A program made the position numbers and the translations under genes. A DNA stretch of 64,000 nucleotides from a virus (lineage: Duplodnaviria > Caudoviricetes): positions 1 through 64,000 of IMG/VR virus record IMGVR_UViG_2786546905_000002. One strand, written 5' to 3'. Below, piece after piece: positions 10,222 through 25,812 of the stretch. Numbering within the stretch: the stretch's first letter is position 1; every line of letters begins with the position of its first letter. The notes beneath the pieces are model-generated. The model saw only the letters and a program-made list of their open reading frames with translations, ran no database searches and was not told the origin of the DNA.

Positions 10222-11906
10222 TAATTATCCCCCTGTGGAATGTGTTGAATTTCGCTCATGAGTTCGAGCAAGGTATCCCTGACGAACATCTCCGCTTCTT
10301 GGCGGTCTGTGGTACCAAGAGACTCAAGCATCGAGTCGTTTTCAGACGCGGATTTAGCGAGCTCTTTGATCGCTTTCTTAGCCAGCTCTGGGTCGATTTC
10401 TAGAACGGATGTGTAGATGTGGTTTTTGAGTGATTCACTATTGCCAATTGGTGATTGCTCGATTAGGTCAAGAACGGTGGCAAAGATCGTCGCGTAGTTA
10501 GCTTTCGCCTCTTGGTTCGCTGCTTCTTCTTGAGCTACTGCGGTATTGACGGAGTTGAATTGAATTTCGAAAGGTTCTTCACCTGTTGGCCAGTACTTGC
10601 CATCACGGTGAATCGTATGAATATCGATAGCACGACGAACAAAGCGAGCGACTGCAGCGCGAATTTGATGTGCTCGCAATGCGGATTGGATAGAGGTACG
10701 CAAAAAGCCGCCCTCCCCTAGCCCACCAGAGAGAAGATCACCAAAACCAAGCATTGACGGGTCCAACCCGATGCTTGCGGCCATGCGTTTAAGGTGGAAC
10801 ATAATATCTTCGATATGAGAGATATTCGGGTCAGTCGTGAACGTGTCGATTTGCACGCCGCCCTTACCCTCAGTCATTAATGGGATAAGGGTATTAATAA
10901 CCGTTGGGATAAAGCCTTGCTTGCGGGAGTTCTTTACAATCTTCTGGCGGTCTGACTGCATTTGAGCAGCAAGTAGATTGACGTATTCTGCCGCGCCTGC
11001 AGAATCAAGACCGGCTGTATTCACACCTACCAAACGATCAATTAGTGAGGCATTAACACGGCTGGCCCCTAATGATGCGATGCTCTGGCGTAGCATTTCC
11101 CACGACTCATACGTGCTGTGCAGTATCGAGGTACCGTAGTTTTGAGTTTCAATTGGTTGACGGCTGTAAGCATCGTCAAAGAGTGAGTATGCTTGGCCAG
11201 TGTAGTTAACCGGCTCTTTATCCATGTTCGGACGCCAAACCGGCATCTTAAGAGGGATAAGCGCCCATGGTTCAGCTAATCGCACTTGCTCGCCGTCTTG
11301 ACGTACCTTGAGGTGTTCAGACGTGAAACCACACAACACACCGGCACGCTCATATTCTCGAATCTGCTTAGCTTGCGTATAAAAATTCGATTCAAAGTGA
11401 GTGATGCCTTTGCCGTTCTGGGCGTATGGCCTGACGTAATTCACCCCGAAGACCAGCATGGGATAAGACCAGTTCATGATCTCTTCATTGATGGCCACCA
11501 TGAGTTCACGATTTAGCTGCGCTACATACTCTGCATGCTCTTCTGATTTCGGATGCAAAAAGACCGCTAGACCATTTTTGTCTGACGCGGATAGAGCGTG
11601 GCCAAGGTGAATGTTGAGTGCTGCATCAATGGTACTGTCCTCTGACATTTCCTTGAAAATCTCATAGAGCATGTACCGGTCTTCGGGGAGCTTGCGAATG
11701 TGAAAACGCTCACGACCTTTGCGGCCCTCTTTGGTTAAAGAGCCACTTTTCTCGCTTGGTGATTCGCTGCGTTCTTGGAAATTAGAGGCTCCATAGCTCG
11801 CACCGCTCTCATAACTTACACCAGCCTCTTTATCGTCTTTATCACTCCAAAAAGGAAAGGCTCGCCGTAGAGCTTCCTGTAAGCCATTGGTGCTGTTATC
11901 CGACAT
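10221..11906 (-). CDS. prt: Portal protein, P1 Prt-like
   Basis: 561 aa, R..LYE.F.EM..D..I..AL..H motif, divergent from darB as in P1. Confidence 0.85.
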   Translation of the reverse strand: MSDNSTNGLQEALRRAFPFWSDKDDKEAGVSYESGASYGASNFQERSESPSEKSGSLTKEGRKGRERFHIRKLPEDRYMLYEIFKEMSEDSTIDAALNIHLGHALSASDKNGLAVFLHPKSEEHAEYVAQLNRELMVAINEEIMNWSYPMLVFGVNYVRPYAQNGKGITHFESNFYTQAKQIREYERAGVLCGFTSEHLKVRQDGEQVRLAEPWALIPLKMPVWRPNMDKEPVNYTGQAYSLFDDAYSRQPIETQNYGTSILHSTYESWEMLRQSIASLGASRVNASLIDRLVGVNTAGLDSAGAAEYVNLLAAQMQSDRQKIVKNSRKQGFIPTVINTLIPLMTEGKGGVQIDTFTTDPNISHIEDIMFHLKRMAASIGLDPSMLGFGDLLSGGLGEGGFLRTSIQSALRAHQIRAAVARFVRRAIDIHTIHRDGKYWPTGEEPFEIQFNSVNTAVAQEEAANQEAKANYATIFATVLDLIEQSPIGNSESLKNHIYTSVLEIDPELAKKAIKELAKSASENDSMLESLGTTDRQEAEMFVRDTLLELMSEIQHIPQGDN

Positions 11907-12261: not shown

Positions 12262-12284
12262 CTTAAAATTTCGCATGCGAAAAT
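12262..12284. repeat. Dar-associated palindrome copy 1 (CTTAAAA-TTTCGCATGCGAAA-AT)
   Basis: 14-bp perfect palindrome 12269-12282; the 23-mer is identical to 19094-19116. Confidence 0.95.
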
Positions 12285-12349
12285 CTCCCTTTCCTTTATC
12301 ATATCGTTAGCTTCCCTGCTGAAAAATGCCCTCCTACGTGGAGGCAACG

Positions 12350-15300
12350 ATGGATAAAGCCATTATCCAAGCGATTGATAGCACCCGTAACATTGATGAG
12401 CTGGTCGCCCAGTTCGAAACGTTACTTAAGGTGGATCTCAGTAATACCCCTACCGGCAAGAAACGGATTGCCGCAAACCAAAAAGCGAAAGACATTCTCG
12501 CCAAATACAATGGCGACTACTCCAATGTTTCACCGGAAGACAAAGCCGCATTGCGCGATTACACCGGCTTTGGCGGCATTGGTGGTTCAACCAACGAATA
12601 CTACACACCAAAATGGGTAGCCGAGGCGGTCTGGGAATCGTTGCGCTCCTATGGCTTTGATGGTGGTTCAGTTCTAGAGCCTAGTGCCGGTGTTGGCGTG
12701 TTCAGTGAAACCAAACCCGCGAACGCGCTTAATACGTCTGTAGAAATGGATCCGACTTCTGCAGCGATTAACCAAATCCTCCACCAAGATGACCACGTTA
12801 TTAACTCTGGCTTTGAGGCTGTGGCCAACGATCCAAGTGTTGGTAACTTTGACGCCGTAATTGGCAACCCACCTTATGGTGTCCGAGACGCCAGTGCGAA
12901 CGATGACCGTGAGTACAAAAACATTAAGTACGCAGATCAGTACTTCGTGACACGTTCAATTGATAAGGCCCGTGCTGGTGGTTTGATCGCTTTAGTTCTG
13001 CCTACGCGTATTGTGGAATCTGGCAACCTGAAAAAATGGCGTACCAGCATTGCATTAAAAGCCGAGTTCTTAGGCGCTCACCGATTACCAACAGGCACGT
13101 TTGCCGATACTGGTGTTGTGACTGATTTAGTGATCTGGCGTAAACATAGTGAAGCTGGCCAAGAGCTAATTGATAACGCCAGCAAAGAAGCGCTCGAGCA
13201 GAGCGGTGTACTTTGGGATACATGGCTAACCGGCAAATGGTTTAAGCGTGAGGGTAAGAAGTTCATCAACGGTGAAGAGTCGACACAAGGTGCGGGTAAG
13301 TTTGCTCGTAAAGTCGTGGACCGTGGGAACCGCTCTAACATGGATATCAAAGAAGCCCTAACCCGCCGCTTTGATAGCCATATTGACTGGGACTCACTTG
13401 ATAGCAACGTTGAGCCACCAGCAAGCACCAAGTATGACGACGGCGATACCATTTTCAGAAATGGCCTCCAGTTCGAAATGCAAGATGGTGAGTGGATTGA
13501 ATCCGAAAACAACGCCAAGCGCGGGAACGTCGACAAATCGACATATGGCGTGACGCATTCTGACGATCTGCAAGCAGCGACCTACTCGATTGATTCCATG
13601 ATGAACCTGACGGCCAGCCAAGCGCTTAAGGCCTATGAAGATTTCCCATACCTTTGTCATGATGATTTTAAAGCCGTTGTACGTTCTATTGCCAAGCTGC
13701 CACAAGGCCAGCAAGAACTCGCATACAAGGGGGTGTTATTAGGGCGCAAAGTCAAAACCTTATCGACCATGGTAGCCGGTGGCCGTAGCCGCTCTAAAAC
13801 GGAATTACTTCACGCTGCAGTGAATAGCGAAGAGCAAAGTATTGCTGATTATCGCACCCGTCTTGGTGGCCAGATAACAGAGCTTAATGCTCTTATGGGA
13901 AACAGCCATATTTCGCAGAAAGAGCTAGCCAAGCTTGATGAGTCGTTTATCTCTGACTGGCATAGCTATAAATCGTCTATCGATAACTCTGGCAAACTGT
14001 CGGACCTGTTAACCGGTGATCTACGAGTTGAGCACACAAACCAATATAACAGCTCGAGAATGGCTGACGTTCTTCACTTCTGTGAGCGTGAGCTTGGCCA
14101 TACTTCACTCACCCTTGATGAAATCCGTGTTTACTACACGGCCCCAGACATTGCCAACCTAAGCGATGATCAGTTGCTCGAGAAGCTTGCGCTTATGGAT
14201 GAGGTAGCCATCAATAACGATGGTTCTATTCAGGCCATGCACCGTGCTTGCTCTGGCCATGTTGGACGTCGCATCGAAGCCCTGCAGAATCAACTATCTG
14301 TGGCCACCAGCGACAATGTAAAAGCCAACTACATGCGTCAGCTCGAAACCATTGAAGCTAAGCGAAACAAGATCTCACTCGATGAGGTGAAAGTTAAACT
14401 CACAGACAACTGGATCCCGCGTCATATCATGCTGGAGTTCCTGCAGGATTCTGGCTACGTCGATTTTGAGCTAGGTGAATGGGAAGAGAACGAATTTACT
14501 TACATTGATGATGATGGCGAAGAGAAGACCAGTGTTGAGCGTGAATTTGTTCAGAGCGAAACCGGCACCCAGTTTAGTGGGTACCGTTGGCGTGATGGCA
14601 AGAAGCGTAATGCTGGTGATGAAGCTTTTGAGCGTCAAATCGAATCCTACATCAATGAGGGTAAAGTGCGTGGTGGTGGCGATAACGCTGAAAAGTCACT
14701 GGTCCGTTCTAAGATTCGCTCTCTCGATGATGAGTTCACCAACTGGCTCGCAGCCAGCGATCACTCTGACGAACTGGAAGAGCAGTATAACAACACGTTC
14801 AACAACTGGATTAAACCAGAGTTCGATGGTAGTGACTTAGGCCTAGAGGGTGTTTCTGGTGCCATTGAGTTCATGCCTTACCAAAATTCGACCATTCGAC
14901 GCCATAGCGCAGACGGCAACGGGATCCTTGCTTTGGGTACCGGCTTAGGTAAGACCCTCACGGGCTTAGGTCTGATTCAGCACAACCTATCAACCAAGCG
15001 TGCAAGCCGTGTTGGTGTCGTGGTCCCTAAATCAACGCTAGAAAACTGGTTCTATGAATCGGATCTGTTCTTTGGTGAAGAGAATCTAAGTGACAAAATT
15101 TTTGTTGGTTTAGACGTGGCCAAAGACAAGAACGGCACTATTGAGCGTGAGACGGTTCTCGATGAGAACGGGGATCCTCGCCTTGATAAGAAAGGCGAAC
15201 CAATTAAGCGTGCCAAGCTAAAAGTTGTCACCAACGGTAAGAAGATAGCCGAGCAGCTTCACGCGGTAACACAATCTACCGCTCGCATTGTGGTGATGAC

Positions 15301-18300
15301 TAAAGACGTTTACGGACGTATTCCAATGAAACCGGAAACCATCAGTGAAAACGTGATGGAAATGAAAGAAGCCGGTTTGATTGCAGGCTCTCATAAGCTG
15401 GTGAAAGACGCTCAAAACCACCGCGATAAAGAGAAGAACGCACGATTCGAAAATAAGTTCTCAGACGACGGTACCGCGAAGAATGAAACCCTACCGTACT
15501 TTGAAGATCTGCTATTCGATTCTGTCATGGTGGATGAGGCTCACGACTTCCGTAACTCGTACAAAGGCGGCTCATATCGTAACAACCTGGCATTCCTGCC
15601 AAGCCAAGCGCAAGCAAACCGCGCTATCGATATGCAGCTTAAAAACAACTTGGTGAAAGCACGTAATGACGGCAACGGGATCTACTTCCTGACGGCTACA
15701 CCTACGGTTAACTCACCGGTTGATATGTTCAATATGCTGTCTCACATCGTACCGGCTGAAACGTTCGCCAAGATGGGTATTTTCGATTCCGACGACTTTA
15801 TCCGTATGTTTGGTAAGACTGGTGAAGCTCTGGTAACTAAGCTCTCTGGTGAAGTGGAAAGCAAAGAGGCCTTGCTGGGTTTCCAGAACCTCGACGCGCT
15901 GCGTAACATCGTTAACCGATACATGACGATGGAAGATGCCAAGAGTGTTGGTGCAGAGGTCCACATTCCCGATCTCATTGCAGCCACCAGCAAAGTGCAA
16001 ATGAACGATGAGCAAGAAGCCCTGTATGAAGAGCTGCGCCATCGTGCTGACGCTATCTCAAACCCTGACGAGCCAGAGAACCAAGAGATTGTCGAACAGT
16101 ACCCAAATGACACTGTTTTCGGCCTTATCCGTAAAATGGATAAAGTCTCAACCGACTTGGACCTTTACCACGAACGTGTAACTTATCGTTTCAGCAAAAC
16201 CAAAATGAATGACGTGCAGGCCGCGCTCGATGCGCTACCAAGTACCGTTACTATCTTGGTGGAAGAAGTCACAGACAGCGGTGAAGTAAAGTTCAAGAAA
16301 AAAGCCGTCAAACTTGAGAAAGAGATCGTTGTTGAGGGTAAGCACGCGGTTGTTCGTCTGCGCCAAGAGTTTGCAGATCAGTTCGTTGATATGCTCGACA
16401 AGGGCAAAATCAAATACTCACACCCAGTGTCACCTAAGTACGCCAAGTTCTTAGACAAGGCCAAAGAAGTGTACATGGCTGGCGGTAAACAACTGGTATT
16501 CAGTGAAGAAAAGAGCCAACACAAAAAGCTCGCCAAGATCATTGCAGACCATACCGGTTGTAAGATGAGTGAAATTGGCATTCTGAACAGTGACACCGTA
16601 GCCGGTAAGAAAGGTTCAAAGGCGTCCGAAGATGATCAGGAAGCTGGCTTAGAAGCGATGGCCAAGAGCTATAACACCAGCAAGTACAAGTTTATGATCC
16701 TCAACAAAAAGGGCGAAGTCGGTATTAACTTGCATCATGGTACCACTGACATTCATCACCTAACCTTGCCTTGGACGCCGATGAGCATCACCCAGCGTAA
16801 TGGCCGCGGTGCGCGTGTTGGTTCTAAGCAAGCAAGCGTGAACGTTCACTACTACACATCCAAAGGCAGCTTTGATGACTTCCGTCTGGCCACTATCACA
16901 CGTAAGGCGAACTGGATTGAAACCATGTTCAAAGGTGATGAGAAATTTGTTGCGAACGCTGACGCGGATAGCTCTGGTGAAACGGCGATCATGCTGGCAG
17001 CTGATCCAGAAGAAGCCAAGCGCCGCATTGAAGCGAGCAAACGAGAAGCTGAACGCAAGCAGAAAGCCGAGAAAGTGCGTCAAACTTCAATCAGCATGAA
17101 TAAGTTCATTCACGCAACGAACCAGCTGAATGTTGACCTTGATGAAATCAGTAGCGAGATCACCGAGCTGGAAAGCAAGCTTGAAGAGCAAGCGGAGAAA
17201 GTCGAAAAAACCAGAGCAAACGCTGACGGTGCGAAAAGTAACTCGTATGAGTACCGACAATATACCCGCGCCAAGTCTGACCATCACGAAACTCAAAAGC
17301 GTCTGACTACGCTAAACCGAGCTCGCGACAACCAGAAGAAAGCCGCAAATACTCTTAAGAAGCTCACGCCATCTATTCAGAACGAAATCAATGAGGGCAA
17401 CCTAAAAGATTACCCTGACTTTTTGACGCACCCAGAGCTTTACCTAGTGAAGAACGGCAAGATTGTTCGCCAAGGTTACACCTACAAAGTGAAAACCAAA
17501 GAGCGCTCTTGGGATCTCGACTACGTGAACGATAGCATTATGACTATTCAAAAATTGGATCGTAAGTCTGGTACCGTGAACGGCCTACTGGTGGAAGAGA
17601 ACGGGAAAGAAGTTAGCCGAGGTAATAACGCGCACCCAATTGAGCAAGTCTTTGAACTGGCCAACGTGGACCAATCTCGCGCTGAACTCGAAGCAAAAGC
17701 ACTAACCGGTGTATCACTGGCTGATACCTGCAAAGTGTTTGACCGTGAAACTTACTTTGAGCTGGTTGAGGCTGGAAAAATCAAACGCTACGGCTTTGAA
17801 AGCAATTGCCTGATTAAAACCGCCGACGGCTACAAAACGCCTTATGGATTTAAGCACTCTGCAGAAGAGCCGCTTGTTTATCCTGACGCAACCGACAAAG
17901 CCGTATTTAAAGGCTTGCTGGCTCAAATTGTGAATGAGTTAGAAAGCAAGGGCCGCGTACAGCTGAGCTCTTCTATCCTGACTCACTTCCTTGGCCGTAA
18001 CTGGGAAGAAATGGCCAAAGAGCAAGGTAAGAAAGCCGACGAACAAGACGTAATCGAGCGTATCACGCTGGAGATTAAGAAGTTCGAGACGGATAACCAA
18101 GCACTCTACAATCAAGCCCTCCTGAAAGCAGAGAGCACCTATCACGGCTCTATTGAGTTCTTTAAAGCTCTAGAAAAGTACATTGATGATCTGAACTGGA
18201 AAGGCTACGTGAACCGTACTGAGATCGTGACATTCAAGCGCCGCCAAATGACGCGCTATGGTGAAACGTTAAAAGAGCGTTCGGCCCAGCACATTGCAGA

Positions 18301-19093
18301 ACAAGAGTACTTACTGTTTAGCAGCTTCACCAAACTTGTCGCCAGCGACCCAACGCGCCCTAAGCGACTGGCAGAGGTTGCCACGGCCATGAAGAAATAC
18401 AAACCAACGTCTGACCATCACCTCATTAAGGTGGTCGATAGTCTGTACTCTGGTGACGTTCAAGAGGCCATGCTGCAGGTGTGTGCTGACCTCCACGCAA
18501 TTGGCTACAAGTCGTTTGATTCTGGTGATGGCCTGCTGGTGGCTGAAAGCTGGGACTTTACTCGCGCCAAGGGCAACTTTGGATCCATGTTCATGGGTTA
18601 CGGTAGCAGCGGCATCGACCGCCAAACGTTCATTGATAAGTACCTCACTGCAGAAGCGATGAAGCCAACGCCGGTTGTCGTGACAGAAAAGCAAGCTGAG
18701 AAGCTGGAGAACATCGACGGCTTTGACGCTGGCTCTGTTGATACGTTCGCAGAGGCCGTATCTCAACTAGGCATCGAAGTGAAGACGCTAACGCAAGATA
18801 TTCCTAAATGGTCATTCCAACGTAATGGCCGTGGTAAGCGCTACGGTGGTCAGCCAATGGAAGCATTTAAGTTCATTGGCCTTATGAGCAACGAACGCGG
18901 CGGCGGCCCACTGAAAGAGCTCCTAGCTGGCAACCGATCATTGAAAGCTGAGCTCGATGCGAAGTTCATCCCAGCGGGGGCGTTCGTAGAGTATGGCTTT
19001 GAGGGTGGCTGGTGGTTCATTAATGCAAGCAGCGACCTAGCCAGCCTAGCCGATCAGTTATTTGATACTGCAGGCGTATCAAAAGCGGCGTAA
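12350..19093 (+). CDS. darB: DarB anti-restriction protein: N6-adenine methyltransferase plus SF2/SNF2 helicase (ORF track start 12326)
   Basis: EPSAGVG motif I, NPPY motif IV, LGTGLGKT Walker A, DEAH, QRNGRGAR motif VI; GGAGG RBS before ATG 12350. Confidence 0.95.
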   Translation: MDKAIIQAIDSTRNIDELVAQFETLLKVDLSNTPTGKKRIAANQKAKDILAKYNGDYSNVSPEDKAALRDYTGFGGIGGSTNEYYTPKWVAEAVWESLRSYGFDGGSVLEPSAGVGVFSETKPANALNTSVEMDPTSAAINQILHQDDHVINSGFEAVANDPSVGNFDAVIGNPPYGVRDASANDDREYKNIKYADQYFVTRSIDKARAGGLIALVLPTRIVESGNLKKWRTSIALKAEFLGAHRLPTGTFADTGVVTDLVIWRKHSEAGQELIDNASKEALEQSGVLWDTWLTGKWFKREGKKFINGEESTQGAGKFARKVVDRGNRSNMDIKEALTRRFDSHIDWDSLDSNVEPPASTKYDDGDTIFRNGLQFEMQDGEWIESENNAKRGNVDKSTYGVTHSDDLQAATYSIDSMMNLTASQALKAYEDFPYLCHDDFKAVVRSIAKLPQGQQELAYKGVLLGRKVKTLSTMVAGGRSRSKTELLHAAVNSEEQSIADYRTRLGGQITELNALMGNSHISQKELAKLDESFISDWHSYKSSIDNSGKLSDLLTGDLRVEHTNQYNSSRMADVLHFCERELGHTSLTLDEIRVYYTAPDIANLSDDQLLEKLALMDEVAINNDGSIQAMHRACSGHVGRRIEALQNQLSVATSDNVKANYMRQLETIEAKRNKISLDEVKVKLTDNWIPRHIMLEFLQDSGYVDFELGEWEENEFTYIDDDGEEKTSVEREFVQSETGTQFSGYRWRDGKKRNAGDEAFERQIESYINEGKVRGGGDNAEKSLVRSKIRSLDDEFTNWLAASDHSDELEEQYNNTFNNWIKPEFDGSDLGLEGVSGAIEFMPYQNSTIRRHSADGNGILALGTGLGKTLTGLGLIQHNLSTKRASRVGVVVPKSTLENWFYESDLFFGEENLSDKIFVGLDVAKDKNGTIERETVLDENGDPRLDKKGEPIKRAKLKVVTNGKKIAEQLHAVTQSTARIVVMTKDVYGRIPMKPETISENVMEMKEAGLIAGSHKLVKDAQNHRDKEKNARFENKFSDDGTAKNETLPYFEDLLFDSVMVDEAHDFRNSYKGGSYRNNLAFLPSQAQANRAIDMQLKNNLVKARNDGNGIYFLTATPTVNSPVDMFNMLSHIVPAETFAKMGIFDSDDFIRMFGKTGEALVTKLSGEVESKEALLGFQNLDALRNIVNRYMTMEDAKSVGAEVHIPDLIAATSKVQMNDEQEALYEELRHRADAISNPDEPENQEIVEQYPNDTVFGLIRKMDKVSTDLDLYHERVTYRFSKTKMNDVQAALDALPSTVTILVEEVTDSGEVKFKKKAVKLEKEIVVEGKHAVVRLRQEFADQFVDMLDKGKIKYSHPVSPKYAKFLDKAKEVYMAGGKQLVFSEEKSQHKKLAKIIADHTGCKMSEIGILNSDTVAGKKGSKASEDDQEAGLEAMAKSYNTSKYKFMILNKKGEVGINLHHGTTDIHHLTLPWTPMSITQRNGRGARVGSKQASVNVHYYTSKGSFDDFRLATITRKANWIETMFKGDEKFVANADADSSGETAIMLAADPEEAKRRIEASKREAERKQKAEKVRQTSISMNKFIHATNQLNVDLDEISSEITELESKLEEQAEKVEKTRANADGAKSNSYEYRQYTRAKSDHHETQKRLTTLNRARDNQKKAANTLKKLTPSIQNEINEGNLKDYPDFLTHPELYLVKNGKIVRQGYTYKVKTKERSWDLDYVNDSIMTIQKLDRKSGTVNGLLVEENGKEVSRGNNAHPIEQVFELANVDQSRAELEAKALTGVSLADTCKVFDRETYFELVEAGKIKRYGFESNCLIKTADGYKTPYGFKHSAEEPLVYPDATDKAVFKGLLAQIVNELESKGRVQLSSSILTHFLGRNWEEMAKEQGKKADEQDVIERITLEIKKFETDNQALYNQALLKAESTYHGSIEFFKALEKYIDDLNWKGYVNRTEIVTFKRRQMTRYGETLKERSAQHIAEQEYLLFSSFTKLVASDPTRPKRLAEVATAMKKYKPTSDHHLIKVVDSLYSGDVQEAMLQVCADLHAIGYKSFDSGDGLLVAESWDFTRAKGNFGSMFMGYGSSGIDRQTFIDKYLTAEAMKPTPVVVTEKQAEKLENIDGFDAGSVDTFAEAVSQLGIEVKTLTQDIPKWSFQRNGRGKRYGGQPMEAFKFIGLMSNERGGGPLKELLAGNRSLKAELDAKFIPAGAFVEYGFEGGWWFINASSDLASLADQLFDTAGVSKAA

Positions 19094-19149
19094 CTTAAAA
19101 TTTCGCATGCGAAAATGTGGAGAGATTCGCTAGAATTTCGCATGCGGAA
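19094..19149. repeat. Dar-associated palindrome copies 2 and 3 (35-bp tandem unit)
   Basis: TTTCGCATGCGAAA at 19101-19114 and TTTCGCATGCGGAA at 19136-19149, each followed by TGGAGAGA. Confidence 0.95.
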
Positions 19150-19151
19150 AC

Positions 19152-19580
19152 TTGGAGAGAAAAATGATTACTCAAGTACAACTGCCAACACAGGCACAGA
19201 TAAAGTCATTGGTTGATGAAGCCACCAGCAAGGTAGGCCGTGAGGTTTTCTTGGAGAATAACCTGCGCGGCATTAAGACGATGTTAGACAGTAACCCTAG
19301 TCTGTATCATCACTATGGCCCGTATTGGTGGGCCGTTAAGGGCTTGCTGGTCGCCAATGGGGTTTTAGATGGCCAAGAAGACGAGCCAATCACACGCGAG
19401 CACTTTAAGTTTGATGATCCGATTTATACATTGTGTGCGGCTTGGGCTTACCACCAGCATCAAATCGAAAGCATGGTGATTAATACCAACCTGCACTATT
19501 TTGACTTGGACGGCGAACCATACGAATATGCACTTGAAGATCTAGAAATGGAAACGTGGGCGAAAAGTAGAAAGCGTTAG
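19152..19580 (+). CDS. ulx: Ulx-like Dar accessory protein
   Basis: NPSLYHHYGPYWWAVKGLL resembles recalled P1 Ulx NPRLYRSYGPYWPEIKKLL; directly downstream of darB. Confidence 0.85.
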   Translation: MERKMITQVQLPTQAQIKSLVDEATSKVGREVFLENNLRGIKTMLDSNPSLYHHYGPYWWAVKGLLVANGVLDGQEDEPITREHFKFDDPIYTLCAAWAYHQHQIESMVINTNLHYFDLDGEPYEYALEDLEMETWAKSRKR

Positions 19581-19584
19581 CCGA

Positions 19585-19600
19585 TTTTCGCATGCGAAAA
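19585..19600. repeat. Dar-associated palindrome copy 4
   Basis: TTTTCGCATGCGAAAA, 16-bp perfect palindrome 4 nt after the ulx stop. Confidence 0.95.
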
Positions 19601-19610
19601 CTGAGCATTA

Positions 19611-19652
19611 AAGGGGGGTGTTTGTGGTGAACAGCCCCCTTGTTTTTTTTGG
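19611..19652. repeat. Left copy of ~40-bp inverted repeat enclosing the rep-par module (also terminator-like)
   Basis: Reverse complement aligns with 23678-23717 (core TGTTCACCACAAA identical). Confidence 0.85.
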
Positions 19653-19717
19653 TAAATCTAATTTATCTATTTAGATACAACTACTTAGAGTGGTTTTTAA
19701 CGTGGTGCAAAAATCAC

Positions 19718-19824
19718 GGTAAATTTGTCACGACTAGGTGTGCTAAGGTAAATCTGTCACGACTTGAGCGCCAGAGTGATGTTTACGGTAAATTTGTCAC
19801 GGTTGGGCGGTAGATCTGTCACGA
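19718..19824. repeat. Four iterons downstream of repA (incA-like copy-control locus)
   Basis: GGTA(A/G)AT(C/T)TGTCACG at 19718, 19747, 19787, 19809. Confidence 0.92.
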
Positions 19825-19864
19825 TGCGTGTAGCCTGCGCATCCACAGACCACACGTTGAAACA

Positions 19865-20767
19865 CTATAAGGCTCTCAATGCTTCGATTGCATCTTCACA
19901 TAACTGGCCGCCAGATAAAGAAAACTCTGTTAGGTTCTTTTTTAAAACCTGCAGTTCCTTTTTGGTTACGTCCTCTTTGGCCACCAGCTTGCTATGAATC
20001 ACTTGAGCTTGCTCTAGTGGCGTCAGCTCTTCCTCGATCACTTTGGTAGATTTGTCACGAATGATGCTATCCCACTCAAAGTTTATGTATATTTCACCGT
20101 TGCGCTTTTCTTCGGTGTATCTCAGCTTAATATCTGTTTTCTTTGCAATGTCCTCAACCGATGGCTTAAGGAAACGGCGTCTAAAGTCGCTCATACGCTC
20201 GTAAGACTTTGGCAAGCAATAACGGTCAATCATCCACTGAACAGTGAACGACACGCTATTGCGGCGGTTAGACCATTGCTTGATTGACTCATACAGCCTC
20301 ATCGAGTGGCCAGAGCCAAGTTCACCAGCGTCACCAATCAGGAACTTAGTAAAATCAGATTTCACCTCTGTGATGATGCTTATCAGCTCCGCATTGAAAT
20401 AGAACGTCGTTACACCACGCTTAGGACGATGAGAGCGCTTAACCATCCAAGTAAAGCTGTCATAGGCCTTGTCCTCGTCGGTGTCCTCATCAGGAAGATA
20501 AAACACAACCTCTTTCCCTTTCATAGCGCTAGCAGCTGCAGCAATCTCTTTGCTGGCGTTCTCGCTATTGAACAACGAAGCATAACGGTTCGTTTCTATA
20601 TCGACACTTACATGCCCGAACTCGGTTTTCTTGTAGTCGACGGGATTATCTAGAAAGTGTTTCAGCGCAATATAAAGGATCCGCTTTTCATTTCTACCAA
20701 GGCTATAGGCTGCTGTAGTCAGCGCGTTAGACTGGCGAAGCACATCCTGTTTTGTGATCTGTGACAT
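19865..20767 (-). CDS. repA: Plasmid replication initiator, Rep_3/RepB family
   Basis: VLRQSNALTTAAYSLGRNEKRIL...HSMRLYESIKQW...Y.RMSDFRRRFLKPSVEDI; flanked by iterons. Confidence 0.95.
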   Translation of the reverse strand: MSQITKQDVLRQSNALTTAAYSLGRNEKRILYIALKHFLDNPVDYKKTEFGHVSVDIETNRYASLFNSENASKEIAAAASAMKGKEVVFYLPDEDTDEDKAYDSFTWMVKRSHRPKRGVTTFYFNAELISIITEVKSDFTKFLIGDAGELGSGHSMRLYESIKQWSNRRNSVSFTVQWMIDRYCLPKSYERMSDFRRRFLKPSVEDIAKKTDIKLRYTEEKRNGEIYINFEWDSIIRDKSTKVIEEELTPLEQAQVIHSKLVAKEDVTKKELQVLKKNLTEFSLSGGQLCEDAIEALRAL

Positions 20768-20780
20768 ATCTACCTTAAAA

Positions 20781-20809
20781 ATCGTGACAAGTTATTCTGT
20801 TGTCACGAT
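20781..20809. promoter_or_regulatory. Inverted half-iteron operator (repA autorepression)
   Basis: ATCGTGACAA-9 nt-TTGTCACGAT immediately upstream of the repA RBS. Confidence 0.75.
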
Positions 20810-20886
20810 AGTTGGTATTCAGAAACAAAACAACTATTCATTTCAATAATTGAGAGAATAAATACACACACCAAGGCTATCTTTTC

Positions 20887-20997
20887 GGTAAATCTGTCAC
20901 GAAATAGCGGTAGATCTGTCACGAATTGGGGTAAATCTGTCACGAAATACGAGGGTTAACGGTAGATGCGTCACGGCGCACGGTAGAACTGTCACGT
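20887..20997. repeat. Five origin iterons (incC-like)
   Basis: GGTA(A/G)A..TGTCACG at 20887, 20909, 20930, 20961, 20982 (spacing 22/21/31/21). Confidence 0.93.
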
Positions 20998-21039
20998 AAA
21001 AGTAATGTAAGTCCATGAATGCAATAGCTTTTGCCAACC

Positions 21040-21139
21040 TAAGAAGATCTTAAGAAGATCCTAATAAGAGTTAAAAACTATTGTAATAATGAATGTGGGT
21101 AAAAGGGATAACTCTATGAGTGGCTTAAAGTTATCCACA
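21040..21139. promoter_or_regulatory. Plasmid origin: TAAGAAGATC repeats, AT-rich tract and DnaA boxes
   Basis: TAAGAAGATC x2 at 21040-21060; TGTGGGTAA 21094-21102; consensus TTATCCACA 21131-21139. Confidence 0.8.
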
Positions 21140-21184
21140 TAATTAAAATCAAATGCAACAAGTGAAACGTATTTGATGATTTAT

Positions 21185-21203
21185 AATTGAAATCGTTTCA
21201 ATT
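21185..21203. promoter_or_regulatory. Inverted repeat in the parA promoter (par operator candidate)
   Basis: AATTGAAA-tcg-TTTCAATT upstream of parA. Confidence 0.6.
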
Positions 21204-21246
21204 GGGGTATATATTTATCTCAACCTAAATAAATTGAGAGCATCCC

Positions 21247-22497
21247 ATGCGTGAATTAGATCGACTGCAGCAAATCGCGGAAAACATGAAATCTGAGCAA
21301 TTAACCCATAAAGAACTGATTGCACAGCGTACTCATATCAACGTTTCAGACGAAGAGATCGACGGTATGGATAGACTTATCTATAACCACTCTCTGAATA
21401 AAAAAAGTTTCCGTGAGTTCATGAAACTTGCTCCTGTCACCTTTCAAAATCGCATTCAAAAAGAGATTGATGATGGCGTGATTCCAGAGCCGATCTATCA
21501 AAATAAACAACACCTGTTTACACGCATGCACATTCAAACCCTAATGGACCACTGGGGGATGCCGAAATACAGCGACCAGTATGAACCTAGAGCTATTGCG
21601 ATTGAAAACCAAAAGGGCGGCACTGGAAAATCCTCGACCTCTGCAATACTTGCTACAGCTTCGGCTTTAGACTTACAAACCAACGCTAAAGTGTTACTGA
21701 TTGACCTTGATTCTCAAGGTACGCTGGGCCAAAGCATGATCTCAACGAATGTAGACGACGATGCTATCTATCTAACTGCAGTTGATATCGCACTAGGTAA
21801 AAAAGAATCAACGGGCGACTACGCGAACCTTGTTCAGAATGGTTACACCGACCGTGAAATCATTCTGAATGCCCCTTTTAGCACGCATTTACCAAACTTA
21901 GACGTGATGCCTGCGTTCAGTACCGATGAACGCTTTCATGACTTATTCTGGCAGGCCCAGACCGACGAAGAAAAGAACCAGTTGGTGAGTCGCTTTGCGC
22001 ATGAAGTTATTCCAGTGCTTAAAGAAAAATACGACTTAATCATCATAGATACACCACCACAAGAGTCGCCGTTAATTTGGATGGTGAACGAAGCAATTGA
22101 TTGTTTGCTAGTTCCTATTTCTCCGCGTGAATACGACTTTGCAGCTACCGCGAACTATCTTTTGACCACGCACGCACGATTTGAGGGATTACCGTCGAAT
22201 GGTAATAACTTACTTTGGAGCCGTGTACTTATTGTTAATCATGATGAGAAAAGCCCGTCCGAACTGGACGTAATCGACAAACTAAGCCGTACAGTTCAAG
22301 ACCGTTTGCTTTCTACTTACATCGTACATTCTGAATTGGTTGCTGCAGCTGCAGAACTTAACCGAACCGCATTAGATGTGGCCAAGTCAGAAAAGCTCGT
22401 ACCGCCTAGAAAGTATGATGATGCAATGACGTCAATTAACTCTGTTTATAAGCAGTTCATTCGTGAAATTAAATCTATCTCAGTGAGAGGAAAATAA
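21247..22497 (+). CDS. parA: Partition ATPase ParA (type Ia)
   Basis: N-terminal HTH extension, deviant Walker A NQKGGTGKS, LLIDLDSQG, IIIDTPP. Confidence 0.97.
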   Translation: MRELDRLQQIAENMKSEQLTHKELIAQRTHINVSDEEIDGMDRLIYNHSLNKKSFREFMKLAPVTFQNRIQKEIDDGVIPEPIYQNKQHLFTRMHIQTLMDHWGMPKYSDQYEPRAIAIENQKGGTGKSSTSAILATASALDLQTNAKVLLIDLDSQGTLGQSMISTNVDDDAIYLTAVDIALGKKESTGDYANLVQNGYTDREIILNAPFSTHLPNLDVMPAFSTDERFHDLFWQAQTDEEKNQLVSRFAHEVIPVLKEKYDLIIIDTPPQESPLIWMVNEAIDCLLVPISPREYDFAATANYLLTTHARFEGLPSNGNNLLWSRVLIVNHDEKSPSELDVIDKLSRTVQDRLLSTYIVHSELVAAAAELNRTALDVAKSEKLVPPRKYDDAMTSINSVYKQFIREIKSISVRGK

Positions 22498-22498
22498 G

Positions 22499-23521
22499 AT
22501 GAATCAAAACTGGGACCGTAAAGTTAGTAAGAATCAATTGTTAGGTAAGGCAGGCTTGAGCACAGTTAGCCAAGGAAACAAACTGTCTACCTCAAAAACC
22601 AGCAATATGAAAAGCTATAAGCTTGAGAACGGGGCAGTCGAGGCTATACGCCGCGTTATACCGGCGTCTGAGGTGGCCGCTAAGACGGCGGTTCACCCTT
22701 TGAACCCTCGTAACCAAGAAGCCTTAAACCCCACGTCTGTGGCCAACACGTTGGCGTCTATCGAGAAAAATGAAATTGATACCGATTGTTTGGGTATTTG
22801 GTCAGACGATAATAAAGTCATTCTGATCATTGAGGGCAGCGTTCGCCGTTACTGTGCGATTGAGGCTCAAAAAGAATACCCTGTTTGGGTACTTCCAGCT
22901 GGTAGCGCGACCAACAAAGACATACGTCGTTTAATCAACGATGCCGAAGACGGCAAGAAACCGCATTCTCTGAGAGAAAAAGGCGGGGCTTACATGAAAG
23001 AAGCGTTAGAGCTCAACAAAGACGCTGAGAACTTGAAAGTAGATGATGTGGCCAAACTTATCGGGGTAGGGCGTGAAACGGTTAGAAAGGCGCTGCAAGC
23101 TTACACTCTGGATATTTCGCTATTAAAACTGCTTCCCGATTATGAGGGCGTATCAGGCGGTATTTACCCTGAACTATCTAAGATTGAAAAGGCCGTTAAG
23201 AAAGCCGACATAGCTATGAAAGATTTTGTTGATGCGGTAAAAGCGCACGCTACCTATCAAGCTGTTTTAGAGAATCAATCCACTGGCTCAGCTCAAAAAG
23301 CTGTCGTTAAAGTCATTCAAGATCAGCTCCAAAAGATGACGAACAAACGAACTGCAAATAAAGCTGAAAATTTTGAATTAGCGTCGTTCTCAGACCGTAA
23401 TAAATCGGCAAAGATGAAAGTCTCTGCAGACGGTCGAAAACATACCATTGAATTGAGTCGGATTGAGAAATCCATCGTTGATGACATAGAAAATTTCATC
23501 CGAGAAAGGCTGAAACAATAG
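22499..23521 (+). CDS. parB: Partition protein ParB
   Basis: IIEGSVRRYCA CTPase motif, HTH DDVAKLIGVGRETVRKAL; coupled to parA. Confidence 0.95.
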   Translation: MNQNWDRKVSKNQLLGKAGLSTVSQGNKLSTSKTSNMKSYKLENGAVEAIRRVIPASEVAAKTAVHPLNPRNQEALNPTSVANTLASIEKNEIDTDCLGIWSDDNKVILIIEGSVRRYCAIEAQKEYPVWVLPAGSATNKDIRRLINDAEDGKKPHSLREKGGAYMKEALELNKDAENLKVDDVAKLIGVGRETVRKALQAYTLDISLLKLLPDYEGVSGGIYPELSKIEKAVKKADIAMKDFVDAVKAHATYQAVLENQSTGSAQKAVVKVIQDQLQKMTNKRTANKAENFELASFSDRNKSAKMKVSADGRKHTIELSRIEKSIVDDIENFIRERLKQ

Positions 23522-23539
23522 CGCTAAAATCACCAAAAG

Positions 23540-23568
23540 AACCATGGCCAAACGCCATGGTTTTTTTT
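23540..23568 (+). terminator. parAB terminator
   Basis: AACCATGG-ccaaacg-CCATGGTTTTTTTT. Confidence 0.75.
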
Positions 23569-23572
23569 ATTT

Positions 23573-23717
23573 TTGCACCACAAGTTATCCTTGTTTAAGT
23601 TGTTGTTTTATTTGGTTAAAGTCAGATTTCCCAAAAAAAACAACGGGGTTGTTTTTTTGGGGAACAAGGGTAGGCGGCAAAAAAACAATAGGGTTGTTCA
23701 CCACAAAAATCCCCCTT
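23573..23717. promoter_or_regulatory. Candidate parS centromere region, including right copy of the ~40-bp inverted repeat (23678-23717)
   Basis: Downstream of parB as in P1; CACCACAA boxes at 23576 and 23699; IR CCCAAAAAAAACAAC-GGG-GTTGTTTTTTTGGG 23630-23661. Confidence 0.55.
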
Positions 23718-23727
23718 GCTTTGGTCC

Positions 23728-25581
23728 TTATCGACCTGTTGCTGGTACGCTCATATCGCCCGTGCGTAACCACCATGCAAAATCAAATACACTCATGGCC
23801 ACCAGCGAACCAATACCATCCCAGCCCTCGGAATAGTTCGACAAATACGCTTCTTTCGCTTCACCTGCAGAATCAAAACCCAGCATTACTTTGTGTTCGT
23901 CAAAGTCGCCGTTGTCGTTCACTTGGTTCACGATAAAGACCTCTTTGCACTGCTGGTTGTGACCTAAAAATACATCAATCGGATCACCATCGGCCCCCAT
24001 CGTTCCGCTTATGTCACCGTAATGATTTTTTAGCTCAATGGACCATTGCTGGCCATTATCATCGGTACCCGCTCTTAAGCTGCCTTTTGGGTTCTCTATG
24101 GCAATCGCAAAGCCTGAAAATGTAAGTCGGCCCTTGCGGTAGTTCCCAGCTTCTTTTTGGGCGGCAGTAGGCTCTGGTAGATCGTTCTCTGGCGAAGTGG
24201 CAGCTTCATTCGCCATGCTATCAATTGATTCAAACATGAATCCAGCCTGCTGGCCGTCGCTCTCTAATTCTTGGTTAACGCGCCCTAAGATATCAATTAA
24301 AGTCGCTTGGCCACCGCCAAACATATCACCCATGGCTTGCCCTTGGTGCAACAACTCTTGGTTGATAGCTTCGGCCATAGCCTTAAATGCCGTCGCCATA
24401 CGTTTAGCGCTTCGATTATTGTTGGCAATGAAACGGGCCAAAGCTTCGGCCTCTGGATCGTTATCTCCGAACAAACCAGATTGCGCCAGTAGTTCGTCAA
24501 TGTTCTGACCTGAGTCTTTTGCTTGCCTTACTAGCTCAGTCGCTTTCACTAGTGATTCCAGTGCGTTCTCTGCCAGTGTCGGCTCTGACTGGTTGATATC
24601 AATAGCGTTAGCGACAAGGCCTACGGTTTGTTTATGCGCCTCCCCATTTAGATATTGCATTTCAACAAACGAACTGGCCGCACTGTTCATAGCATTTAAG
24701 ATATTGCGAATCTCTGGATCCGGTTCTTCGGACACAAGCTTAACCAGTTTTTCATTCTTATAGGCCTTGGCGAATACTGCGTTTTGCATACGCTCGATGA
24801 GCTGCTTAGTTGGGCGCCCATCTTCGGTAAGTAACCCAGCTGTTGAGTTATCCCCAATTTCAGTTAGGAAACTGTTTATAAAACCTTGGTTAGTTTGTGC
24901 GAGCAAGTTACCTGTTTCGCTTGGATTGAATAGAGCAATCATTTGGTCGTTGATGCGTTCAGCGTCCACCCACGCGGTTTCTGCAGCGCTCATTTGCTGC
25001 AAATCCGATAGGTTTGAATCACGGGCGAACTTAGCTCTATCGAGCTCAGTGATACGCTCACGAACCAGTACCGGCTCTTTCATGCTTTTAACGTCGTTAG
25101 CATCGAGATCAAAGCGTTCAGCATTATCAATCAGGTATTGGCGGTAGTGATCGGCTTTGCCTTGTTGGTAAGCACTGATCAACGCCATGGTTCGACCGTT
25201 GCCAGACTCCACCACGTTATCACCGCCGACAATTGGAGCACCATGGGAGCTTAGGCCGCTGTCAGTAAGCTGCTGCGGTCTTAAGTCGCTGGCCATCTTT
25301 GAGATTTGCAGTTTGGAAGATACGCGGGTGCGATCACGGGGCTGGAGCTCTTGAGGAAAGTCTGGGTTAATTCGACCATCTTGAGTGTTAGACGGCACCA
25401 AATCGGACGCTTCCACTAGCTTAAAGCCTGTTTCAACCTCATCACCTTTGGCTGTCACTACGTAGCTTGTACGGCCCGTGGATGGGGTAGGGGAGGGAGC
25501 CGATTCGGTTTGAGAACTTTTAACAATGTCACACAGCTCATTGATACTGGCTGCGGCGGCGATTTTTTCTTTTTTAGACAA
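23728..25581 (-). CDS. ddrB: DdrB-like polyvalent protein: ddrB-ParB-like domain plus C-terminal inorganic-pyrophosphatase-like domain (ORF track start 25593)
   Basis: NP.FPQELQPRDR...GAPIVG...VESGNGR; C-terminal AQKEAGNYRKG...IENPKGS.R...HYG......GADGDPIDVFLG...DEHKVMLGF; GGAGG RBS before TTG 25581. Confidence 0.85.
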   Translation of the reverse strand: MSKKEKIAAAASINELCDIVKSSQTESAPSPTPSTGRTSYVVTAKGDEVETGFKLVEASDLVPSNTQDGRINPDFPQELQPRDRTRVSSKLQISKMASDLRPQQLTDSGLSSHGAPIVGGDNVVESGNGRTMALISAYQQGKADHYRQYLIDNAERFDLDANDVKSMKEPVLVRERITELDRAKFARDSNLSDLQQMSAAETAWVDAERINDQMIALFNPSETGNLLAQTNQGFINSFLTEIGDNSTAGLLTEDGRPTKQLIERMQNAVFAKAYKNEKLVKLVSEEPDPEIRNILNAMNSAASSFVEMQYLNGEAHKQTVGLVANAIDINQSEPTLAENALESLVKATELVRQAKDSGQNIDELLAQSGLFGDNDPEAEALARFIANNNRSAKRMATAFKAMAEAINQELLHQGQAMGDMFGGGQATLIDILGRVNQELESDGQQAGFMFESIDSMANEAATSPENDLPEPTAAQKEAGNYRKGRLTFSGFAIAIENPKGSLRAGTDDNGQQWSIELKNHYGDISGTMGADGDPIDVFLGHNQQCKEVFIVNQVNDNGDFDEHKVMLGFDSAGEAKEAYLSNYSEGWDGIGSLVAMSVFDFAWWLRTGDMSVPATGR

Positions 25582-25610
25582 TGTAGCCTCCAAAGTATGG
25601 AAGCGGCGAA

Positions 25611-25626
25611 TTTTCGCATGCGAAAA
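25611..25626. repeat. Dar-associated palindrome copy 5
   Basis: TTTTCGCATGCGAAAA in the ddrB leader. Confidence 0.95.
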
Positions 25627-25644
25627 CTTTTGAGCGGGGAGTTC

Positions 25645-25785
25645 TCAAAGAGCTAGCAATAGTCGATGGAGTTCATCAGCGTATTGAACGCGTTCGGCTT
25701 TGGTAAGTTCTACGTTACTCGCTTGTTTCAGATAATACTCGCATCGGTGTTCGTGCCAAGCTTCATCTTCTTCCTGTTTACTCAT
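25645..25785 (-). CDS. Unannotated 46-aa ORF bracketed by two palindromes
   Basis: MSKQEEDEAWHEHRCEYYLKQASNVELTKAERVQYADELHRLLLAL; AGGA RBS; fills the gap between ddrA-like and ddrB. Confidence 0.6.
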   Translation of the reverse strand: MSKQEEDEAWHEHRCEYYLKQASNVELTKAERVQYADELHRLLLAL

Positions 25786-25798
25786 AATAGATCCTAAT

Positions 25799-25812
25799 TT
25801 TCGCATGCGAAA
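25799..25812. repeat. Dar-associated palindrome copy 6
   Basis: TTTCGCATGCGAAA 1 nt after the stop of 25814..26539. Confidence 0.95.

What the first reader, a model, noticed from the sequence alone, without database searches (positions are those of the whole stretch)
12269..25812. TTTCGCATGCGAAA palindrome found only at boundaries of anti-restriction (Dar) genes
Seen six times: 12269, 19101, 19136 (one mismatch), 19585, 25611, 25799. All are intergenic and bracket darB, ulx and the 46-aa ORF/ddrB leader. Three start within 1-7 nt of a stop codon. Other GCATGC cores I saw lack the TTTC/GAAA arms. I know of no such site in P1. Inference, alternatives: (a) operator for a Dar-specific regulator; (b) loading or anchor sites that let co-injected Dar proteins (ParB-like DdrB, DarB MTase-helicase) recognise their own DNA, which would explain cis-only protection; (c) recombination sites for gene-cassette exchange; (d) UUUUCG-CAUG-CGAAAA mRNA hairpins for processing or co-translational packaging.
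Basis: partly seen in the sequence, partly recalled or inferred. Interest (0 to 1): 0.8.

Follow-up and report, generated by a model that had tools for sequence, protein, structure and literature searches.

The report
Orphaned ParB centromere/operator sites among dar genes
The repeated palindrome is real, but it is not specific to the anti-restriction (Dar) genes: it is the DNA site bound by a widespread plasmid-partition protein (a KorB-like ParB) that this phage-plasmid recently lost in a partition-cassette swap, which left six sites with no partner.

Summary
There are five exact copies and one one-mismatch copy of TTTCGCATGCGAAA (0.03 expected by chance). All are intergenic, and there are no other exact copies in the 3.35-Mb assembly.

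The window is a distant P1-like phage-plasmid. In public sequence the same 14-mer occurs in clusters and tandem arrays on unrelated plasmids and phages (GC 26-67%), typically bracketing a small-parA/KorB-like-parB operon. Its 10-bp core equals that of the NAH7 parS, which ParB binds in EMSA (mBio 2025). P1-like relatives carry that parAB between ulx and ddrB, with 14-15 sites in a ~19-kb zone.

Relative L171 is 98.7% identical to the window through darB-ulx and still has the KorB-type operon. Its homology to the window ends within 4 bp of a palindrome. The window instead has a P1-type parAB with a different conserved parS downstream (23570-23727), and no KorB-like ParB apart from a chromosomal Spo0J-type protein.

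A Vibrio relative has a 78%-identical DdrB and no palindromes, and P1 has none. So the sites are not needed for Dar. I read them as recently orphaned ParB sites. It is a new member of a known kind, of moderate interest.

The scan noted this palindrome once before, on an overlapping window of the same genome.

The parts
12269..12282 (.). Site 1. Exact palindrome in the portal-darB intergenic region. It overlaps the last base of a sigma-70-like promoter (TTGGCC-16-TAAAAT) that points into darB.
19101..19114 (.). Site 2. Exact palindrome starting 7 nt after the darB stop. It is the upstream member of a pair that flanks a TAGAAT -10-like hexamer.
   Evidence: Conserved in L171 at 8052.
19136..19149 (.). 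Site 3. One-mismatch copy (TTTCGCATGCGGAA) ending 14 nt before the ulx ATG. The equivalent copy in L171 is exact.
19586..19599 (.). Site 4. Exact palindrome starting 5 nt after the ulx stop, followed by a terminator hairpin.
   Evidence: Conserved in L009 and L171.
25612..25625 (.). Site 5. Exact palindrome 18 nt upstream of the ddrB-like start (minus strand).
   Evidence: Conserved in L008. The equivalent site is at L134:19262.
25799..25812 (.). Site 6. Exact palindrome between the ddrA-like stop and the 46-aa ORF. It lies about 172 nt from site 5 in both lineages (gaps of 172-173 nt).
21247..23521 (+). P1-type parA (416 aa) and parB (340 aa, PF08775). This is the replacement partition cassette and is not the cognate of the palindrome.
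23570..23727 (+). Candidate parS of the window's own ParB. It contains repeats of AAAAACAAnGGGGTTGTT followed by CACCAC. The repeat is conserved downstream of every P1-type parB in this lineage, with seven tandem 33-bp copies carrying TCGCCA in L013.
21105..21120 (.). Left breakpoint of the par-cassette swap. Homology to L171 ends at about 21113, within 4 bp of where L171 has a palindrome ahead of its orf72-parA-parB (KorB-like) operon.
19865..20767 (-). repA (Rep3 family), flanked by GGTAAATCTGTCACGA iterons. It is 93% identical to the repA of L171 and so lies outside the swapped segment.

Best explanation
TTTCGCATGCGAAA is the binding site (centromere parS and/or operator) of a KorB-like ParB, a protein with ParB_N and HTH_ParB/KorB domains that belongs to a small-ParA/ParB partition system widespread on proteobacterial plasmids and phage-plasmids.

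In this clade of marine P1-like phage-plasmids, that parAB normally sits between ulx and ddrB. Its sites are scattered through a zone of about 19 kb that includes the dar genes. Many lie in promoter-overlapping positions, so ParB probably also regulates those operons (this step is inferred).

The window's lineage recently replaced that cassette with a P1-type parA-parB-parS cassette. The six palindromes are the surviving sites outside the replaced segment, and they now have no cognate protein in cis. They probably have no role in Dar function here (inferred).
For: 1. Co-occurrence. A KorB-like ParB is encoded in 16 of 34 loci with three or more exact copies, against 8 of 97 single-copy loci (Fisher p = 3e-6). 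The usual layout is two sites upstream of parA and one just after parB (L136, L143, L146, L156, L157, L160, L164-166). Tandem arrays with periods of 20, 60, 68 and 95 bp also occur.

2. Experimental precedent. NAH7 ParB binds TTTCTCGCATGCGAGAAA in EMSA, which has the same 10-bp core. NAH7 has six dispersed intergenic copies that activate downstream genes (PMC12421886). NAH7 ParB is homologous to the ParB of L171 (E = 4e-9).

3. Recognition helix. The ParBs encoded beside exact sites are only 25-33% identical overall, yet they share GK(S/P)xxF(V/I)SKH(L/M) in the helix.

4. Distribution in P1-like relatives. Those with this ParB have 14-15 sites, all within about 19 kb around parAB.

5. Recent swap. 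L171 is 98.7% identical to the window over darB-ulx and has a KorB-type parAB with flanking sites. Homology ends within 4 bp of a site.

6. Missing partner. The window's assembly has only a chromosomal Spo0J-type ParB.

7. Separate centromere. The window's own ParB has a different conserved parS downstream.
Against: No binding was measured for this exact sequence or for these ParBs. The assignment rests on co-occurrence and on a related, not identical, experimentally tested site.

The assembly is 88% complete and contig C7 is 79 kb, so a cognate ParB on an unassembled replicon cannot be excluded.

Five of the six window sites are still perfect, and the three sites visible in relatives 92-94% identical to the window that also have the P1-type parAB (L008, L009) are all intact, even where the flanks have diverged. 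That is compatible with a recent swap, but it also hints at residual constraint. The sample is too small to decide.

Some multi-copy contigs (the inoviruses L026, L093 and L064) show no ParB in the sequence held.
Confidence: 0.8

Rival explanations
1. The sites are still functional in this phage. In this view, a window-encoded protein binds them to control or mark the dar genes. Candidates are the ParB-superfamily domain of DdrB, the P1-type ParB, the 46-aa ORF product, or an unrecognised regulator.
For: The sites sit at every dar junction. Some overlap -10-like hexamers (TAAAAT or TAGAAT immediately 5' of sites 1-3). They are intact in L008 and L009 although the flanks have diverged. DdrB carries a ParB-superfamily domain.
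Against: L013 has a 78%-identical DdrB, a 50%-identical P1-type ParB and the same synteny, but no motif. The motif occurs on many replicons without dar genes. The P1-type ParB has its own conserved parS. The 46-aa product is acidic and has no DNA-binding features. Only the KorB-like ParB family is shared among the motif-bearing contigs.
Confidence: 0.08
2. The palindromes act mainly as recombination points for module exchange between related phage-plasmids.
For: - The left breakpoint of the par swap lies within 4 bp of a site.
- The DUF3800 insertion/deletion boundary lies about 18 bp from site 4.
- In L171, one flank of a site is the reverse complement of the window's site-6 flank.
- In L169, a PIN toxin-antitoxin cassette is flanked by two sites.
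Against: No dedicated recombinase is associated with the sites. Sites and module junctions are both confined to short intergenic regions, so coincidence is expected. The tandem arrays and the parAB-flanking layout on unrelated plasmids point to a centromere or operator role. The L171 junction could be an assembly artefact. The pattern is most simply a by-product of conserved repeats 14-26 bp long.
Confidence: 0.05
3. The motif is this clade's late-promoter activator box, or alternatively an RNA hairpin or terminator element.
For: In the Vibrio relative, three junctions have the order site, 21 nt, TATAGT or TAAAGT, site, upstream of dar and structural operons. With extended flanks (AAAAGT...ACTTTT) the element resembles a weak bidirectional terminator.
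Against: P1's late box is AAGTGACTT. A different recurrent motif, RTTCSGAAY, has 14 copies on the contig, and earlier notes place it before late and lysis genes. The palindrome also occurs on conjugative plasmids and in non-transcribed arrays. The RNA stem is only 5 bp and is absent from two of the five minimum-free-energy folds. There is no covariation.
Confidence: 0.04

Closest known systems
parS_NAH of the IncP-9 plasmid NAH7 and its ParB (mBio 2025, PMC12421886)
   Same: Both are perfect inverted repeats with the identical 10-bp core TCGCATGCGA and TTTC/GAAA-type arms. In both cases about six copies are dispersed in intergenic regions of the backbone, near parAB and upstream of other operons. 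The ParB has ParB_N plus HTH domains and is homologous to the ParB of the window's relatives.
   Different: The NAH7 site is 18 bp (TTTC-TCGCATGCGA-GAAA), whereas this one is 14 bp (TT-TCGCATGCGA-AA). The two ParBs are only 23% identical and their recognition helices differ. Here the replicon is a P1-like phage-plasmid, and the window itself lacks the ParB.
KorB and its OB operators on IncP-1 plasmids RK2/RP4
   Same: A ParB-family protein doubles as a global regulator through about a dozen dispersed 13-bp palindromes (TTTAGCSGCTAAA), some of them directly upstream of -35 elements. The ParBs of the window's relatives hit the Pfam KorB domain. Site pairs centred near -40 and +1 resemble KorB class I operators.
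   Different: The sequence differs. No KorA partner has been shown. Whether the effect on transcription is repression or activation is unknown.
N15 prophage-plasmid SopB and its four IR centromere sites
   Same: N15 is a phage-plasmid whose centromere consists of several separate palindromic sites (IR1-4; PMC7205306). From my own knowledge, these lie among phage genes and affect late gene expression.
   Different: N15 has a type Ia SopAB system, a different site sequence, and its cognate protein is present.
P1 parS (BoxA ATTTCAC, BoxB TCGCCA, IHF site) downstream of parB
   Same: The window's actual partition cassette is of this type (PF08775), with a repeat region directly downstream of parB that carries TCGCCA/CACCA-like boxes.
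   Different: That region, not the TTTCGCATGCGAAA palindrome, is the P1-type centromere. P1 has no copy of the palindrome.

Membership tests
ParB-binding parS/operator site (KorB / IncP-9 ParB type) | A short perfect inverted repeat (13-18 bp), present in several near-identical copies | tested here: met
   There are five exact copies and one one-mismatch copy of a 14-bp palindrome.
ParB-binding parS/operator site (KorB / IncP-9 ParB type) | Copies cluster at or around a parA-parB operon across independent replicons | tested here: met
   Sites bracket parAB in loci L136, L143, L146, L156, L157, L160, L164-166, L171, L167 and L134. The association test gives p = 3e-6.
ParB-binding parS/operator site (KorB / IncP-9 ParB type) | A cognate ParB (ParB_N plus HTH) is encoded on the same replicon | tested here: not met
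   This is not met in the window. The assembly has only a chromosomal Spo0J-type ParB on C2. It is met in the close relative L171 and in L167, L024, L061 and L134. The window's sites are therefore filed as orphaned members.
ParB-binding parS/operator site (KorB / IncP-9 ParB type) | Direct, sequence-specific binding by ParB (EMSA, ChIP), and CTP-dependent loading | not testable with these tools
   The only support is by analogy: NAH7 ParB binds a site with the same 10-bp core in EMSA.
P1-type parS (BoxA/BoxB centromere of a PF08775 ParB) | Lies immediately downstream of the P1-type parB and is conserved with that ParB among relatives | tested here: not met
   The palindrome is absent downstream of parB and absent from L013. 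A different repeat occupies that position in the window, L008, L012 and L013.
P1 late promoter (Lpa-dependent, -22 box plus -10) | A conserved 9-bp box (AAGTGACTT in P1) 4 nt upstream of a -10 hexamer, preceding late operons | tested here: not met
   The sequence differs, and its position relative to -10-like hexamers is inconsistent. A separate motif, RTTCSGAAY, recurs on the contig.

The most novel reading that the evidence does not exclude
The orphan sites may not be inert, and two readings remain open.

1. In sibling phage-plasmids, the KorB-like ParB would directly control expression of the virion-packaged Dar anti-restriction genes, tying plasmid maintenance to the anti-restriction load.

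2. In this window, the retained sites would act in trans. They could be decoy centromeres or operators that titrate the ParB of co-infecting KorB-type siblings, which would be a form of partition incompatibility used as a competitive weapon. Alternatively, they could let a co-resident element regulate this phage's dar genes.
Probability: 0.2. Interest if true: 0.6.

Novelty: new member of a known kind. Interest (0 to 1): 0.35.

Why it matters
This work turns an apparently Dar-specific mystery motif into a recognisable element. It is a previously unlisted parS/operator sequence of a large ParB family, related to the NAH7 site.

It also shows three things about a clade of marine P1-like phage-plasmids:
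- The ParB sites are interleaved with the dar anti-restriction operons.
- Partition cassettes are exchanged cleanly at these sites between near-identical phages.
- The exchange leaves orphan sites behind.

That gives a natural system for testing ParB-mediated control of phage genes, the decay of orphan centromeres, and partition-based incompatibility between sibling phage-plasmids. It does not reveal a new kind of mechanism.

Tried and rejected
- **The window's own ParB as the binder (my first idea).** I first thought the sites were dispersed parS sites of the window's own ParB. I rejected this for three reasons: relatives carry the motif without that ParB; that ParB has a different conserved parS downstream; and L013, which has the same ParB type, lacks the motif.
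- **P1 late-promoter box.** The sequence is different.
- **Host factor regulon.** There are no copies elsewhere in the host assembly, and only one copy among 143 genomes of the same family.
- **The 46-aa ORF as a small repressor.** Its product is acidic and has no family hit.
- **Nucleotide searches.** Searches against the phage and plasmid collections found nothing. Single-sequence locus searches with ParB also found nothing.
- **RNA folding.** Only weak hairpins were predicted.
- **Host canonical parS.** None was found in the assembly, so the host ParB's own sites remain unidentified.
- **Failed look-ups.** The P1 genome paper was not held. One alignment call failed on wrong coordinates, and one literature query was malformed.

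Full report
**Observation.**
A search for TTTCGCATGCGAAA at up to one mismatch finds six sites, starting at 12269, 19101, 19136 (one mismatch), 19586, 25612 and 25799. Shuffles give 0.03 expected. All six sites are intergenic and lie 1-43 nt from the neighbouring gene ends. The bare GCATGC core is under-represented, and the other six cores lack the arms. The 3.35-Mb assembly holds no further exact copy. Among 143 other genomes of the same family, only one carries a single copy.

**What the window is.**
The region encodes, in order:
- portal (10221-11906, minus strand)
- DarB-like protein (12326-19093, 2255 aa)
- Ulx-like protein (19164-19580)
- a Rep3 RepA flanked by iterons (19865-20767, minus strand)
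- a large ParA and a P1-type ParB carrying PF08775 (21247-23521)
- DdrB-like protein (23728-25593, minus strand)
- a 46-aa ORF
- DdrA-like and DarA-like genes

Ulx is only about 28% identical to P1 Ulx and ParB about 23% identical to P1 ParB. This is therefore a distant P1-like phage-plasmid, and its nearest protein relatives come from Vibrio and marine metagenomes.

**Hypotheses eliminated.**
- P1's annotated late promoters use a -22 box, AAGTGACTT, which is unrelated to this palindrome. P1 has no copy of the palindrome even at one mismatch.
- As RNA, a single site gives only a 5-bp stem, and the hairpin is missing from two of the five minimum-free-energy folds.
- I first suspected dispersed parS sites of the window's own ParB, because the TTTC...GAAA arms recall ParB-family sites. 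That failed. Downstream of every P1-type parB in this lineage (window, L008, L012, L013) there is a different conserved repeat, AAAAACAAnGGGGTTGTT followed by CACCA or TCGCCA. L013 has seven tandem copies. L013 has the same synteny and a 50%-identical ParB, yet it has no palindrome.

**What the motif travels with.**
An exact scan of viral contigs found several contigs with four to six copies. Apart from the dar genes shared among the P1-like contigs, the only protein family linking those contigs to the other multi-copy contigs was a canonical ParB with ParB_N plus HTH_ParB/KorB domains. In the P1-like contigs this ParB is preceded by a small ParA, and the pair sits between ulx and ddrB, exactly where the window has its P1-type cassette.

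A probe for two sites 160-190 nt apart recovered contigs from Vibrio, Erwinia, Providencia, Marinobacter and Pontivivens, plus 27 metagenome contigs, with GC from 26% to 67%. These loci show tandem arrays with periods of 20, 60, 68 and 95 bp, and one has 15 copies in 14 kb. The recurrent layout is two sites upstream of parA and one just after parB.

A KorB-like ParB is present in 16 of 34 loci with three or more copies, against 8 of 97 single-copy loci (p = 3e-6). The ParBs next to exact sites are 25-33% identical overall but share the recognition-helix motif GK(S/P)xxF(V/I)SKH(L/M).

**Precedent.**
A literature search for the core sequence found the NAH7 study. NAH7 ParB binds the 18-bp repeat TTTCTCGCATGCGAGAAA in EMSA. 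Six copies are dispersed in intergenic backbone regions, and binding activates downstream conjugation genes (PMC12421886). The 10-bp core is identical to ours. NAH7 ParB is homologous to the ParB of the window's relatives (E = 4e-9, 23% identity).

**Distribution in complete relatives.**
In a complete 137-kb Vibrio alginolyticus phage-plasmid, all 15 sites (at up to two mismatches) lie between 14.4 and 33.5 kb. They are found:
- between darB and ulx
- after ulx
- upstream of orf79-parA-parB
- 3 nt after the parB stop
- at the ddrB start
- between the small ORF and ddrA
- as two pairs upstream of the dar operon and another operon

Two viral contigs show 14 sites each in comparable zones of about 19 kb. 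At three junctions the order is site, 21 nt, TATAGT or TAAAGT, site. This places the sites near -40 and +1 of a promoter that lacks a -35 element. From that I infer a regulatory role like that of KorB or NAH7 ParB. The direction of the effect is unknown.

**The swap.**
L171 encodes an Ulx 98% identical to the window's. It is 98.7% identical in DNA from darB through ulx, and 93% through repA. It then continues into a palindrome, orf72, a small ParA, a KorB-like ParB and two more palindromes. Homology to the window and to L009 ends within 4 bp of that palindrome. Beyond this point the window carries a different inverted repeat and the P1-type parA. A more distant relative (L167, Ulx 66% identical) also has the KorB-type cassette with sites at the same junctions. 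The KorB-type system is therefore the usual state in this clade, and the window's lineage (with L008-L011) acquired a P1-type cassette recently.

The window's assembly has only one ParB_N/HTH_ParB protein. It is a Spo0J-type gene in a housekeeping context on contig C2, and no chromosomal contig carries the palindrome. The six sites are thus orphans in cis. One of them (site 3) differs from the exact copy in L171. That is about what neutral drift predicts, so constraint can be neither shown nor excluded.

**Dar-specific readings.**
The window's DdrB is 78% identical over its full length to that of L013, which has no palindromes. Many motif-bearing replicons have no dar genes. The sites are therefore not required for Dar function and are not DdrB loading sites.

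Several module junctions lie at or near sites: the par swap, the DUF3800 insertion/deletion, an inverted junction in L171, and a PIN cassette in L169. I read this as a by-product of conserved repeats lying in short intergenic regions. It was not tested statistically.

**Verdict.**
This is a real motif of a known kind: a ParB-binding parS/operator site with a sequence not previously listed. In this window it has been orphaned by a recent partition-cassette exchange. Binding itself and any residual function remain to be tested.

Noticed in passing
window 23570-23727; L013:11080-11310: This is the candidate centromere of the P1-type ParB. It contains repeats of AAAAACAAnGGGGTTGTT followed by CACCAC (window) or TCGCCA. 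TCGCCA is P1's BoxB hexamer, and L013 has seven tandem 33-bp units. The repeat is conserved downstream of parB in the window, L008, L012 and L013.
   Followed up: partly
window 19717-19826 and 20884-21000: There are four and five copies of the iteron GGTAAATCTGTCACGA on either side of repA, an arrangement like P1's oriR/incA.
   Followed up: no
contig C7, e.g. window 821, 1523, 6583, 8778, 8825, 12112, 31843, 55165, 60191, 61361: The motif RTTCSGAAY has 14 copies on the contig. One lies in the portal-darB intergenic region, and the Vibrio relative has a similar GTTCGGAATAAT there. It is a better candidate for this clade's late-promoter box, as earlier notes suggested.
   Followed up: partly
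window 24585-24625 and 25494-25518 versus L008:3632-4363 and L008:5234-6102: DdrB varies in length among relatives: 621 aa here, 1130 aa in L008 (94% nucleotide identity elsewhere), and 850 aa in L167. The difference comes from two internal insertions or deletions.
   Followed up: no
window 19619-19863; L009:188-1276; L171:8611-9309; L169:1297-1954; L171:20-1117: Variable cargo sits next to the sites. A DUF3800 gene lies between ulx and repA in L009 and L171 but is absent here. L169 has a PIN toxin-antitoxin pair after ulx. L171 has an IS605-type TnpB upstream of darB.
   Followed up: partly
L171:13020-13151: The sequence to the right of a palindrome matches window 25816-25768 and then 25063-24982 in inverted orientation. 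This is either an inversion or deletion that occurred at the palindrome, or an assembly artefact.
   Followed up: no
L026:6965 and 7008; L093:7481 and 7525; L064:1054-2210; L058, L060, L076: Inovirus contigs (they carry Zot) hold two to four exact copies of the same palindrome. In L026 and L093, a pair 43-44 bp apart lies about 55 bp after zot. No ParB was seen in the sequence held.
   Followed up: no
window 25645-25785 (minus strand); L134:19276-19447: The small acidic ORF (46 aa here, about 39 aa in the Vibrio plasmid) is conserved. In both lineages it is flanked by two palindromes about 172 nt apart (gaps of 172-173 nt).
   Followed up: partly
G000:C2:35871-36887: The host's Spo0J-type ParB has no adjacent parA, and the assembly contains no canonical parS (TGTTNCACGTGNAACA). 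The phage contig has 47% GC against 51% for the assembly as a whole.
   Followed up: partly
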